Shown piece by piece: positions 27,012 through 39,039 of a stretch of 64,000 nucleotides of DNA. The stretch spans positions 24,499 through 88,498 of the forward strand of contig JBEKIG010000010.1 in NCBI GenBank assembly GCA_050011875.1. The letters are read 5' to 3'. Both the position numbers and the translations under genes were made by a program. The notes under the pieces were generated by a model. The model made no database searches and was not told where the DNA came from. It was given only the letters and a program-made list of their open reading frames with translations. Position 1 is the stretch's first letter, and each line of letters opens with the position of its first letter. Source of the DNA: Nitrososphaeria archaeon. Lineage in GTDB: Archaea > Thermoproteota > Nitrososphaeria > JACIWG01.

Positions 27012-27608
27012 TTAGATGTGACGTTTTAACCTTTCGGAAACAGCTTTCCAAATTAAATTATGAACAGACTCTATCGACAGATTTCCGTCTACAATGACCC
27101 ACTTATTTTCACTTGCTAATTTAATAAAACACCTTCTTACACGTTCCAAATATTCAAGATCTTTCTCATGAATGTCACGATCATGCTCCTTCCTTCTGAA
27201 GGAAACATTAGGTTGAAGATCCAAAACTATCGTTAAATTTGTACGAGGCAAATGCGAATCTAAACTTTTTAACCATTGGATAGGAAGATTGTTGGCTAAT
27301 CCATAAGCCCAATTTGATTGATAATACCTATCGAACACAATTGTATATCTTTGTTCACTTAATTCTTCGATCTTAGGTTTTAACTCCCACCTGTTAGCTG
27401 ACAATAACATATGTTTCACTTCTAAAGGTACTTGAATTTCGTTTGATAATATTTTCTTAATTAGTTTGCCAACAGGTGTCTTGTAATCTGGAAAGGACAT
27501 TTTAGTTGCACTAACACCATTTTCCTTTAGCTTTTCAACTAGTAATTCTGTCTGAGTCTTTTTCCCAGATTGGTCTATTCCTTCTATTGCAATTAGCGAC
27601 GGCATCAT
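27012..27608 (-). CDS. tmk: Thymidylate kinase
   Basis: IEGIDQSGKKTQ, FPDY, SANRWE, FDRYYQS. Confidence 0.95.
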   Translation of the reverse strand: MMPSLIAIEGIDQSGKKTQTELLVEKLKENGVSATKMSFPDYKTPVGKLIKKILSNEIQVPLEVKHMLLSANRWELKPKIEELSEQRYTIVFDRYYQSNWAYGLANNLPIQWLKSLDSHLPRTNLTIVLDLQPNVSFRRKEHDRDIHEKDLEYLERVRRCFIKLASENKWVIVDGNLSIESVHNLIWKAVSERLKRHI

Positions 27609-27663
27609 ACATTAATACATCAAAGATAGACTTAAAAAATGATGCCATTATGGGTATAAACAT

Positions 27664-28796
27664 ATGAAAAGGATAGGTTTCATCGTGAATCCCATAGCCG
27701 GGCTAGACTGAAATAGGGGCCAGGCGGCGTTTTGGGATTAAAAGGAACCGATGATCGTGTAATAGTAGAGTTAGCGATGGTAGAAAAGGTTCCGCCGACA
27801 GCCCAAAAAAAAGCCTTCGAATTCGCCGAGAAGATTGCGAAACTTATAAAAAATGATTTCTGTTTCTATACTTCTAACTCTAAAATGGGTGAAGATTATT
27901 TACGAAAAAAAGGAATTAATTTTGAAGTAGCCTATGAATATAAAGGTAAGTTTAGCACGAGTAGAGATACTGAGAAGCTTTGTGAAAAGCTTATGACAGT
28001 TCGTGTTGAAGCAATATTTTTTGTAGGAGGAGATGGCACTGCTTGTGACATCTTCCGTGTAATAGGAAATAAAGTGCCTCTTATAGGAATACCTGCCGGA
28101 GTTAAGATGTACAGCGGCATATTTTGTACTACAGTCGATACTTCAGTCAAAGCTCTTTCCAATTTTTTGGAAGGATCTTACGAATTATGCGAAGAAGAAA
28201 TAATCGATATAAATGAAGAAAATTATAGAAAGGATGAATTTAATCTTAAAGTATATGGTTATGCTTCGACTTTAAAGGAATTGGAGAATATCCAAGGATC
28301 GAAATCGGATTATTATGGACAGGACAAGGATAATCAAGAAAGGATTGCAAAGTACTTTACAGAAAATATGGAGAAAGAAACTTATTACATATTGGGACCC
28401 GGAACTACAGTCAAGGCAATACCAAAAATGCTGAATCAACCATATACGCTCTTAGGTGTCGATATACTTCTCGAAGGAAAGGTGATTGCACGAGATGTTG
28501 ATGAAAAACACATCTTGAACATTACTAAAGGAAGGAATGTGAAACTTGTTCTGAGCCCCTTAGGTGGACAGGGGATAATACTAGGCCGAGGCAACCAGCA
28601 AATCTCCTCTAAAGTGTTGCGAAGAATTAAAAGGCATGACTTGATATTACTAGCAACAGAAAAAAAACTAAAAGGTTTACGGAGGAATTACCTAATTGCT
28701 GATATTGATGATAGTTTTGTTCGCAAAATATTGGGAGGATATGTACGGGTATTGGTAGATTATAACATAGAAAGGGTTCTGAAATTAACCTATTAA
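27664..28796 (+). CDS. ATP-NAD kinase family protein (COG3199-type), spliced: join(27664..27706,27724..28796), 371 aa
   Basis: Spliced N-terminus MKRIGFIVNPIAGLGGVLGLKGTDD matches the family start; downstream GGDGTA, GIPAGVKMYSG, GPGTT, GGQGIILGRGNQQIS intact. Confidence 0.88.
27707..27723 (+). other. 17-nt BHB-type intron in a protein-coding gene
   Basis: Outer helix GCCG/CGGC, central helix GGCT/GGCC, bulges AG|A and AG|G, inner CT/GG; canonical cut sites give an in-frame join. Confidence 0.85.
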
Positions 28797-28837
28797 AAAG
28801 ATTTAACCTACAATTATTTAAAGGTAGGAGCAGGAGC

Positions 28838-38640: not shown

Positions 38641-38801
38641 TAGTAAAATGGTAAATATATTAAATTATTCGGGATCATTATTATATATGTAGGTTCCTCA
38701 TTATATATAATTAATGCAGATAATTAAAGGATTTCCAAAACAGCAAATAAGAAAAAAATATTTTATGTTCTGATAAGCATAACGACCTTCAAAGAAGACA
38801 G

Positions 38802-38886
38802 TGCGGGGGGTGGGATTTGAACCCACGAACCCCTTCGAGACGAGGTTCTGAGCCTCGCGCCTTTGACCTATCTTGGCAACCCCCGC
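38802..38886 (-). tRNA. tRNA-Leu(CAG)
   Basis: GCGGGGG/CCCCCGC acceptor, CGAGG-CT CAG AA-CCTCG, long variable arm. Confidence 0.95.
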
Positions 38887-38940: not shown

Positions 38941-39039
38941 CGCCGGGGAAGGGACTTGAACCCTTGAAACGGTAGAGCCGTTACCGGCTATCTTGTTGGA
39001 TCTCGAGGCCGGCCCTTTCGACCACTCAGGCACCCCGGC
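38941..39039 (-). tRNA. tRNA-Ser(CGA) with 12-nt canonical 37/38 intron (38990-39001)
   Basis: GCCGGGG/CCCCGGC-G, CCGGC-CT CGA G|ATCCAACAAGAT|A-GCCGG, long variable arm. Confidence 0.93.

What the first reader, a model, noticed from the sequence alone, without database searches (positions are those of the whole stretch)
27664..27760. BHB intron interrupting a protein-coding gene (ATP-NAD kinase family)
Seen: ATG 27664 reads MKRIGFIVNPIAGLD then TGA (27709), while the rest of the otherwise intact gene is in another frame. The junction folds as a full BHB: outer helix GCCG(27697-700)/CGGC(27725-28), 4-bp central helix GGCT(27701-04)/GGCC(27718-21), 3-nt bulges AGA(27705-07) and AGG(27722-24), inner CT/GG pairs. 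Cutting after the second base of each bulge (the EndA rule) removes exactly 27707-27723 (ACTGAAATAGGGGCCAG, 17 nt). That restores the frame and gives NPIAGLGGVLGLKGTD, the family's N-terminal motif. Established: archaeal mRNA introns spliced by the tRNA endonuclease are well documented mainly in cbf5. Inference: this is an mRNA intron in a metabolic gene. It would make expression depend on tRNA-splicing capacity, and gene callers would hide it as a truncated ORF starting at TTG 27732.
Basis: partly seen in the sequence, partly recalled or inferred. Interest (0 to 1): 0.92.

Follow-up and report, generated by a model that had tools for sequence, protein, structure and literature searches.

The report
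Spliced mini-intron in archaeal kinase gene
A 17-base insert near the start of an archaeal NAD-kinase-like gene has the shape that the tRNA-splicing enzyme cuts, and comparison with relatives indicates it is a true mRNA intron, a kind so far confirmed inside the coding sequence of only one other archaeal gene.

Summary
The ATG at 27664 opens 15 codons and then meets TGA at 27709. The rest of the gene (TTG 27732 to 28796; Pfam NAD_kinase N and C domains) lies in another frame. Bases 27697-27728 fold as a strict bulge-helix-bulge (BHB).

The motif alone is not rare. The genome holds 38,155 such motifs, against 38,285 for a mirrored control. The comparative evidence is what carries the case:
- Nine complete alleles carry an insert at the same codon position: 4 genomes of 3 genera and 5 metagenome contigs. 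Insert lengths are 16, 17, 18, 22 and 25 nt.
- Every unspliced reading hits a stop.
- Cutting after the second bulge base restores the family's N-terminal motif in 9 of 9.
- The central helix shows compensatory changes; 71 of 72 helix cells pair.
- Synonymous exon positions keep the outer helix (9 of 9, against 1 of 92 intronless alleles).
- They also keep a further 7-bp exon-exon helix (all 7 pairs in 7 of 9, against 2 of 92).

The host encodes two EndA subunits and RtcB, and its tRNA introns fit the same motif and cut rule. Independent DNA contigs contain the 17 nt. No RNA data were available, so splicing is inferred. I read it as a new member of a known kind: a second coding-sequence BHB intron family after cbf5.

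The parts
27631..27640 (.). A/T-rich box (CTTAAAAAAT) in the 55-nt spacer between the divergent thymidylate kinase gene (start 27608, minus strand) and the kinase-like gene (ATG 27664). I take it as a possible shared TATA element, which would make both mRNAs leaderless.
   Evidence: Read from the sequence. The box and its distance to the ATG are kept in G001, G004, G003, L040 and L042. The promoter role is inferred from the recalled archaeal TATA-to-start spacing of about 26-28 nt and was not tested.
27664..27706 (+). Exon 1: the ATG plus 14 codons and the first base of a split Gly codon. It encodes the first strand and the start of the glycine-rich loop of the kinase domain.
   Evidence: Codon differences among the 9 alleles are mostly synonymous; for example, own against L091 shows 8 synonymous and 1 non-synonymous. 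In the intronless homologues P0016 and P0040 the Pfam NAD_kinase match starts at residue 4, profile position 1. In the exon-2-only ORF the match starts at profile position 9.
27688..27694 (+). 5' strand (AAUCCCA) of a distal exon-exon helix that extends the outer helix of the BHB. It pairs with 27733-27739.
   Evidence: RNAalifold consensus on 9 alleles, with changes on both sides at two pairs. All 7 pairs form in 7 of 9 intron-bearing alleles and 6 of 7 pairs form in the other 2, against all 7 pairs in 2 of 92 intronless alleles.
27697..27700 (+). Outer helix of the BHB, 5' strand (GCCG, in exon 1). It pairs with 27725-27728.
   Evidence: It is invariant in 9 of 9 alleles. The codon choices it requires occur in 1 of 92 intronless alleles.
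27701..27704 (+). Central 4-bp helix, 5' strand (GGCU, in exon 1). It pairs with 27718-27721.
   Evidence: Two of its 4 pairs change on both sides across alleles (G-C to A-U, and C-G to U-A).
27705..27707 (+). 5' bulge (AGA). The predicted cut lies between 27706 and 27707.
   Evidence: The rule of cutting between the second and third bulge residues is stated for cbf5 in PMC2738675. The host's tRNA-Tyr intron has the same AGA bulge.
27707..27723 (+). The 17-nt intron, which holds the in-frame TGA at 27709-27711.
   Evidence: It is present without gaps in DNA contigs of 4 runs from 4 studies, one of which may be the source of this DNA.
27708..27717 (+). Inner hairpin of the intron.
   Evidence: It varies in sequence and length among alleles (9-18 nt).
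27718..27721 (+). Central helix, 3' strand (GGCC, inside the intron).
27722..27724 (+). 3' bulge (AGG). The predicted cut lies between 27723 and 27724.
27724..28796 (+). Exon 2: the last two bases of the split Gly codon, the rest of the kinase-like coding sequence, and the stop codon.
   Evidence: Pfam PF01513 scores 69.4 bits and PF20143 scores 33.9 bits, both above their cut-offs.
27725..27728 (+). Outer helix, 3' strand (CGGC, in exon 2).
27733..27739 (+). 3' strand (UGGGAUU) of the distal exon-exon helix.

Best explanation
The gene at 27664-28796 encodes an NAD-kinase-superfamily protein of about 371 aa. A 17-nt archaeal bulge-helix-bulge intron (27707-27723) interrupts its coding sequence inside a glycine codon of the N-terminal glycine-rich motif.

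Proposed mechanism:
1. The pre-mRNA folds so that exon 1 pairs with exon 2. This forms a 7-bp distal helix and a 4-bp outer helix.
2. The end of exon 1 pairs with the 3' part of the intron to form the 4-bp central helix. The two splice sites then lie in 3-nt bulges on opposite strands.
3. The host's heteromeric splicing endonuclease (two EndA-family subunits) cuts after the second base of each bulge.
4. RtcB joins the exons and the full reading frame is restored.

Shown here: the structure, its conservation and covariation, the frame logic in 9 of 9 alleles, and the presence of the enzymes. Inferred: that cleavage and ligation happen in the cell.
For: 1. Anatomy. The coordinates and the fold are as described.

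2. Same site, different inserts. Own genome, G001, G004, G003, L040, L042, L082, L112 and L091 carry inserts of 17, 17, 18, 16, 18, 16, 22, 22 and 25 nt at the same codon position. Every unspliced reading meets a stop. The same cut rule restores the contiguous NPxAGxGG..GLKGTD motif in 9 of 9. The partial contig L041 fits as far as it reaches. The lengths fall in all three classes modulo 3, so no single frameshift rule fits, but excision does.

3. Covariation. 71 of 72 cells in the outer and central helices pair. Two central pairs change on both sides (5 cells). 0 of 500 shuffles reach the observed covariation score. Sliding the partner strand gives only 17-44% of cells paired.

4. Constraint at synonymous sites, seen only where the intron is present.
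- The three codon choices that make GCCG/CGGC occur in 9 of 9 intron-bearing alleles and 1 of 92 intronless alleles.
- The distal exon-exon helix has 7 of 7 pairs in 7 of 9 and 6 of 7 pairs in 2 of 9, against 7 of 7 pairs in 2 of 92 intronless alleles.

5. Exon 1 is under protein-level selection. Codon differences are mostly synonymous. It corresponds to profile positions 1-8 of the Pfam NAD_kinase domain in intronless homologues.

6. Exon 2 is intact over about 350 codons in all alleles, at 35-95% identity.

7. Machinery.
- Two EndA-family ORFs of 182 and 178 aa are present; the second also gives weak, below-cut-off hits to beta-subunit models.
- RtcB is present.
- Two EndA genes are also found in G001 and G004, and one in G003, which is 68% complete.
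- (alpha-beta)2 EndA is described for Thaumarchaeota (PMC5829648, passages).

8. The host's own tRNA-Tyr, tRNA-Pro and tRNA-Met introns (45, 16 and 32 nt) fit the same strict motif and cut rule.

9. Contigs from 4 runs of 4 studies carry the insert with no gap or joint. Three of these runs are independent of the window's likely source.
Against: - There is no RNA evidence. No RNA run was listed for this DNA, so the spliced junction has not been seen.
- The fold is not unusually stable (z = 0.51).
- BHB-like motifs are as common in this genome as a mirror-image decoy (38,155 against 38,285). The motif alone proves nothing.
- One allele (L112) has a U-U mismatch in the central helix.
- The inner stem is weak or shifted in some alleles, such as L040 and L082.
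- The nine alleles fall into about three lineages, so they are not nine independent observations.
- The outer helix never varies and therefore gives no covariation signal of its own.
Confidence: 0.87

Rival explanations
1. The insert is decoded by the ribosome without splicing, through programmed frameshifting, stop-codon read-through or translational bypassing.
For: The own allele needs a net shift that a ribosome could in principle make. PMC2738675 (passages) notes that cbf5 introns were once confused with translational frameshifting.
Against: Insert lengths of 16, 17, 18, 22 and 25 nt fall in all three classes modulo 3, and each insert holds a stop in the incoming frame. Different alleles would therefore need +1 shifts, -1 shifts or read-through plus 6 extra residues inside a conserved glycine loop. 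I saw no shared slippery run and no matching take-off and landing codons in the sequences. This was judged by eye; no dedicated program was run. The covariation sits in a BHB geometry with 3-nt bulges, not in a downstream stimulator.
Confidence: 0.04
2. The 5' end is decayed. The protein is made from TTG 27732 without the N-terminal segment, or the gene is a pseudogene, and the BHB-like fold is a coincidence.
For: Gene callers produce exactly this truncated product in all 13 closest clusters. BHB-like motifs are frequent by chance.
Against: Exon 1 keeps the family's N-terminal residues across alleles whose proteins are only 35-61% identical, and its changes are mostly synonymous. That is not expected of untranslated DNA. 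Synonymous sites keep two helices only in the alleles with the insert. The supposed start differs between clades: it is simply whichever conserved Leu codon lies nearest. Exon 2 shows no decay.
Confidence: 0.06
3. The 17 nt are an assembly or sequencing artefact.
For: The window comes from a metagenome-assembled genome of 119 contigs.
Against: Contigs of four runs from four studies cover 27598-27776 or more with no gap and no joint. One of the runs may be the source of this DNA. Related inserts occur at the same place in three other genomes and six metagenome contigs.
Confidence: 0.01

Closest known systems
cbf5 pre-mRNA introns of Crenarchaeota (Watanabe 2002, recalled through citations; Yokobori 2009, PMC2738675, passages read)
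   Same: Both are short BHB-type introns inside a coding sequence. cbf5 introns are 16-44 bp; these are 16-25 nt. In both, the cut falls between the second and third bulge residues. Both sit in a codon of a functionally critical motif. Some members have lengths that are multiples of 3. Both are patchily distributed among relatives, occur in hosts with heteromeric EndA, and are routinely missed or misread by annotation.
   Different: The gene is different: a metabolic kinase-like enzyme, not an RNA-modification enzyme. The lineage is different: Nitrososphaeria and unnamed relatives, not Sulfolobales or Desulfurococcales. The paper describes most cbf5 motifs as unconventional or relaxed, whereas this one is a strict helix-bulge-helix-bulge-helix backed by a further 7-bp exon-exon helix. 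cbf5 in this genome is uninterrupted. cbf5 splicing was shown by cDNA and in vitro cleavage; this case has no RNA data.
BHB intron in the 5' UTR of Haloferax volcanii HVO_1309 (PMC7714728, passages; PMC10485636, passages)
   Same: An mRNA substrate of the archaeal splicing endonuclease outside tRNA and rRNA.
   Different: That intron lies in the untranslated leader of a euryarchaeon with a homodimeric enzyme. This one interrupts the reading frame, so splicing is needed to make the full-length protein.
Archaeal pre-tRNA BHB introns, including the host's own tRNA-Pro (16 nt), tRNA-Met (32 nt) and tRNA-Tyr (45 nt)
   Same: The same 4-bp outer helix, 3-nt bulge, 4-bp central helix and 3-nt bulge, and the same cut rule. 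The size range is the same. The enzymes are presumably the same.
   Different: There is no tRNA body to help recognition. Exon-exon pairing supplies the outer helices instead, and the product is an mRNA.
IRE1-dependent HAC1/XBP1 mRNA splicing in eukaryotes (recalled; mentioned in PMC13149111, passages)
   Same: It works alike. A protein endonuclease removes a short intron from an mRNA, the exons are ligated without a spliceosome, and the reading frame changes as a result.
   Different: The nuclease and the RNA motif are unrelated, and the eukaryotic case is a regulated stress response. Nothing here shows regulation.

Membership tests
Archaeal BHB (EndA-dependent) intron | Two 3-nt bulges on opposite strands, separated by a 4-bp helix | tested here: met
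   27705-27707 and 27722-27724 flank the helix 27701-27704/27718-27721. The geometry is kept in 9 of 9 alleles, with one mismatch in L112.
Archaeal BHB (EndA-dependent) intron | Flanking outer and inner helices (the strict hBHBh' form) | tested here: met
   The outer helix has 4 bp and a distal helix adds 7 bp. The own allele has an inner stem of 2-3 bp. The inner stem is weak or shifted in some other alleles.
Archaeal BHB (EndA-dependent) intron | Cutting after the second bulge residue gives a functional joined product | tested here: met
   The frame and the conserved motif are restored in 9 of 9 alleles. The rule is as stated in PMC2738675.
Archaeal BHB (EndA-dependent) intron | The structure is supported by compensatory change | tested here: met
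   Two central pairs change on both sides. 0 of 500 shuffles reach the covariation score. Two further pairs in the distal helix also change on both sides.
Archaeal BHB (EndA-dependent) intron | The host encodes the splicing endonuclease and an RNA ligase | tested here: met
   Two EndA-family ORFs are above the Pfam cut-off (98.8 and 80.7 bits) and above the TIGR00324 cut-off. RtcB scores 565 bits.
Archaeal BHB (EndA-dependent) intron | The spliced RNA is observed, or cleavage is shown in vitro | not testable with these tools
   No RNA run was listed.
NAD kinase / diacylglycerol kinase superfamily (Pfam PF01513 + PF20143) | Both Pfam domains score above their gathering cut-offs | tested here: met
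   PF01513 scores 69.4 bits against a cut-off of 25.5. PF20143 scores 33.9 bits against 23.7.
Canonical NAD kinase (NCBIfam equivalogs NF002984, NF002521) | A score above the equivalog cut-off | tested here: not met
   25.2 bits against a cut-off of 326, and 24.3 bits against 309. The protein belongs to the superfamily but is not a canonical NadK orthologue. Sources name its relatives 'ATP-NAD kinase family protein' or 'predicted polyphosphate/ATP-dependent NAD kinase'. Its substrate is untested.
cbf5 intron family | The intron lies in the cbf5 gene | tested here: not met
   This is a different gene. cbf5 of this genome matches TIGR00425 positions 5-322 in one open frame with no stop.
Programmed ribosomal frameshift site | One conserved shift direction and one conserved site across homologues | tested here: not met
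   Insert lengths fall in all three classes modulo 3.

The most novel reading that the evidence does not exclude
This intron is old and selectively maintained, and it is not a neutral passenger. It marks a whole sub-lineage of the kinase family. That includes the window's clade of 7 alleles, the L082/L112 clade with about 25 further N-truncated protein clusters, and L091; other truncated forms were not checked at the DNA level. The AU test does not reject a single origin. Cells have also invested in extra exon-exon pairing at synonymous sites. On this reading, splicing by the tRNA endonuclease and RtcB acts as a gate on production of the enzyme. The case would also be the visible tip of a larger, annotation-hidden set of BHB introns in the mRNAs of archaea with heteromeric EndA.
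Probability: 0.2. Interest if true: 0.9.

Novelty: new member of a known kind. Interest (0 to 1): 0.78.

Why it matters
In the papers I read, BHB introns in archaeal mRNAs are confirmed for two genes only:
- cbf5, where the intron is in the coding sequence (PMC2738675, PMC7714728).
- HVO_1309, where it is in the 5' UTR (PMC7714728, PMC10485636).

The 2023 review says more probably remain to be found. Six full-text searches returned no report of such an intron in another protein-coding gene, in Nitrososphaeria, or in this kinase family. The library lacks most subscription journals, so this is not proof of absence.

If the case is confirmed by RNA, four things follow:
- It would be the second coding-sequence case, the first in a metabolic gene, and the first in this lineage.
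- It comes with an unusually clean comparative signature: covariation, plus constraint at synonymous sites that is present only in intron-bearing alleles. That signature could be used as a search criterion.
- Current gene calls for this family are systematically N-truncated in at least two clades.
- It gives a simple substrate for studying how heteromeric EndA recognises a BHB without a tRNA body.

Tried and rejected
- **RNA evidence.** No RNA holder was listed for window 27300-28800.

- **Genome-wide search for further mRNA introns in G000.**
  - Motif definition: 8 core pairs with at least 6 Watson-Crick, a 2-bp inner stem, and intron length 14-100 nt.
  - It found 38,155 motifs, against 38,285 for a mirror-image decoy.
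  - Motifs joining two open frames of at least 40 codons numbered 1,027, against 1,013 for the decoy.
  - The scan has no power without homology or RNA data, so I draw no conclusion about other introns.

- **Wider distribution.**
  - The genome-contig scan with the protein returned only the same-genus relative.
  - A DNA pattern written to match all known intron-bearing alleles hit only G000 among 401 sampled genomes of the phylum. That sample did not include G001, G003 or G004.
  - The organisms behind L082, L112 and L091 remain unnamed.
The count of 6 complete intron-bearing loci plus 1 partial among 80 is therefore not a frequency.

- **N-termini of called proteins.** 15 clusters start at the conserved Met of the motif, and several others start at the Leu. 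These may hide further introns or may be start-codon choices. I could not fetch their DNA, so this stays open.

- **Single or multiple origin.** The trees put the intron-bearing genes in 3 places. The AU test does not reject one clade (p = 0.36). The question is undecided.

- **Second copy in G003 (C5).** Its frame break looks like a single-base frameshift with no insert, not a BHB intron.

- **Paper supplements.** They were not opened. Additional file 1 of PMC2738675, which lists cbf5 intron sizes, was not seen; the 16-44 bp range comes from the main text.

Full report
**What is in the sequence**

The ATG at 27664 opens 15 codons that end at TGA 27709. A 354-codon ORF then runs in another frame from TTG 27732 to 28796. 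That ORF carries the Pfam NAD_kinase N-terminal and C-terminal domains above their cut-offs.

The minimum-free-energy fold of 27690-27735 is the proposed bulge-helix-bulge:
- outer helix 27697-27700/27725-27728;
- central helix 27701-27704/27718-27721;
- 3-nt bulges 27705-27707 and 27722-27724;
- a small inner hairpin.

Removing 27707-27723 gives a coding sequence of 371 codons plus the stop, which is the normal length of the family.

The window is contig C10 (bases 24499-88498) of a 2.64-Mb genome in 119 contigs, 97% complete. The nearest named homologues are from Nitrososphaeria MAGs. The DNA is found in peat and soil metagenome runs.

**Is the motif alone remarkable?**

It is not. The fold is no more stable than shuffled sequence (z = 0.51). 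My strict BHB definition finds 38,155 motifs on both strands of the genome. A mirror-image decoy with the same pairing content finds 38,285. That is about 8 in 100,000 per position and length. The case therefore rests on where the motif sits and on comparison with relatives.

**Relatives**

In the protein database, the 13 closest clusters (55-96% identity) are all called as N-truncated proteins of 303-355 aa. More distant members (43% identity and below) mostly run to 360-390 aa and start with the contiguous N-terminal motif, though a few of them are also N-truncated.

At the DNA level, nine complete alleles carry an insert at exactly the same codon position:

| Allele | Source | Insert length (nt) |
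|---|---|---|
| own | G000 | 17 |
| G001 | same genus | 17 |
| G004 | another genus of the family | 18 |
| G003 | another genus of the family | 16 |
| L040 | metagenome contig | 18 |
| L042 | metagenome contig | 16 |
| L082 | metagenome contig, protein 35-39% identical to the window's | 22 |
| L112 | metagenome contig, protein 35-39% identical to the window's | 22 |
| L091 | metagenome contig, protein 35-39% identical to the window's | 25 |

The partial contig L041 agrees as far as it reaches.

Every unspliced reading meets a stop. Cutting after the second base of each bulge restores the contiguous motif in 9 of 9. The lengths cover all three classes modulo 3, so excision explains all alleles and a single ribosomal recoding rule does not.

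In total, 92 other loci have the motif uninterrupted. Among the 80 metagenome loci, 73 matched the first motif pattern and one more (L100) carries a variant of it.

**RNA-level selection**

On the nine-allele alignment, 71 of 72 cells in the outer and central helices pair. Two of the four central pairs change on both sides: G-C to A-U, and C-G to U-A. None of 500 shuffles reaches the observed covariation score. Sliding the partner strand drops pairing to 17-44%.

The 5' strand of the central helix is exonic and the 3' strand is intronic. A synonymous Leu change in the exon is therefore answered by a change in the intron.

The outer helix is made of exon bases on both sides and never varies. 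It requires three particular synonymous choices (Ala GCC and two Gly GGC codons), which occur together in 9 of 9 intron-bearing alleles and in 1 of 92 intronless alleles. The residue before the cut is Leu in 9 of 9, against Met in 77 of 92.

RNAalifold also found a 7-bp distal helix between exon 1 (27688-27694) and exon 2 (27733-27739), with double changes at two pairs. All 7 pairs form in 7 of 9 intron-bearing alleles and 6 pairs form in the other 2. Only 2 of 92 intronless alleles have all 7. At the three positions free of amino-acid constraint, pairing is 9/9, 8/9 and 8/9, against 34/92, 37/92 and 26/92.

The nine alleles represent about three lineages, so these are not nine independent trials. 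The contrast with intronless alleles is nevertheless large.

**Protein-level selection**

Exon 1 keeps the family's N-terminal residues, and its changes are mostly synonymous. For example, own against L091 shows 8 synonymous and 1 non-synonymous codon difference.

In the intronless homologues P0016 and P0040, the Pfam NAD_kinase match begins at residue 4, profile position 1. In the exon-2-only ORF it begins at profile position 9. Exon 1 thus encodes part of the domain and is evidently translated as part of this protein.

**Machinery and host substrates**

- The genome has two EndA-family ORFs of 182 and 178 aa. Both are above the Pfam and TIGR00324 cut-offs, and the second also gives weak, below-cut-off hits to beta-subunit models.
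- It has RtcB.
- This fits the (alpha-beta)2 enzyme reported for Thaumarchaeota (PMC5829648). That is the type that Yokobori and colleagues link to mRNA introns (PMC2738675).
- G001 and G004 also have two EndA genes. G003, at 68% completeness, shows one.
- aragorn flags 9 of 50 tRNA genes as intron-bearing.
- Of the 8 flagged genes that I re-examined, tRNA-Tyr, tRNA-Pro and tRNA-Met (45, 16 and 32 nt) fit my strict motif and cut rule at aragorn's coordinates. The other 5 do not.
- cbf5 in this genome is uninterrupted.

**Artefact excluded**

Contigs from four runs of four studies cover the site with no gap and no joint. One of those runs may be the source of this DNA. One divergent strain carries three substitutions inside the intron.

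**Evolution**

In FastTree and IQ-TREE trees built without the columns next to the intron, the window's clade of 7 alleles is fully supported. L082 and L112 form a second group, and L091 stands alone. All three lie among intronless genes, so at least 2 to 3 changes are needed.

The AU test does not reject a single clade of all ten (p = 0.36). One old gain with losses and repeated gains at a favourable site both remain possible.

The L082 group is large. Its roughly 25 closest clusters at 90% identity are all 303-352 aa. One genus of the window's own family (g2) has only an intronless gene, from a distant branch of the tree.

**Literature**

The passages I read state that cbf5 is the confirmed coding-sequence case. 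They give intron sizes of 16-44 bp and cuts between the second and third bulge residues. Some cbf5 introns keep the frame, and annotation is often wrong (PMC2738675). HVO_1309 has a 5'-UTR BHB intron (PMC7714728). [quoted passage not shown]

Six searches found nothing on this gene family or on Nitrososphaeria.

**Verdict**

[quoted passage not shown] Splicing itself has not been observed.

Noticed in passing
window 38941-39039 (G000 C10:63439-63537, minus strand): aragorn in intron mode predicts a tRNA-Ser(CGA) with a 12-nt intron next to tRNA-Leu (38801-38886). The standard tRNA tool did not list it. My strict BHB test did not find a motif at aragorn's coordinates.
   Followed up: partly
window 27609-27663: The 55-nt spacer between the divergent thymidylate kinase gene and the kinase-like gene has one conserved A/T box about 28 nt from each start codon. 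This suggests a shared bidirectional promoter and two leaderless mRNAs. It is inferred from the sequence and from conservation.
   Followed up: partly
L121 (G003 C5:32900-34500, minus strand): G003 has a second, intronless copy of the kinase-like gene. Its frame breaks near residue 250 in a way that looks like a single-base frameshift, either a pseudogene or an assembly error.
   Followed up: partly
L122 (G004 C3:574800-575900, minus strand): In G004, the homologue of the first EndA ORF (L032) has an in-frame stop in its N-terminal half, with the same frame open on both sides. The cause is unknown.
   Followed up: no
Proteins (for example P0017, P0019, P0189, P0083, P0142): Many other family members are called with N-termini that start at the conserved Met or Leu of the motif or a few residues before it. 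One of them (P0142) starts with residues that look intron-derived. Some may hide further introns at or near this site. Their DNA could not be fetched.
   Followed up: partly
G000 C13:17266-19999: aragorn reports a tRNA-Thr with a 2,637-nt 'intron'. This is probably a false join of two distant halves, but it was not examined.
   Followed up: no
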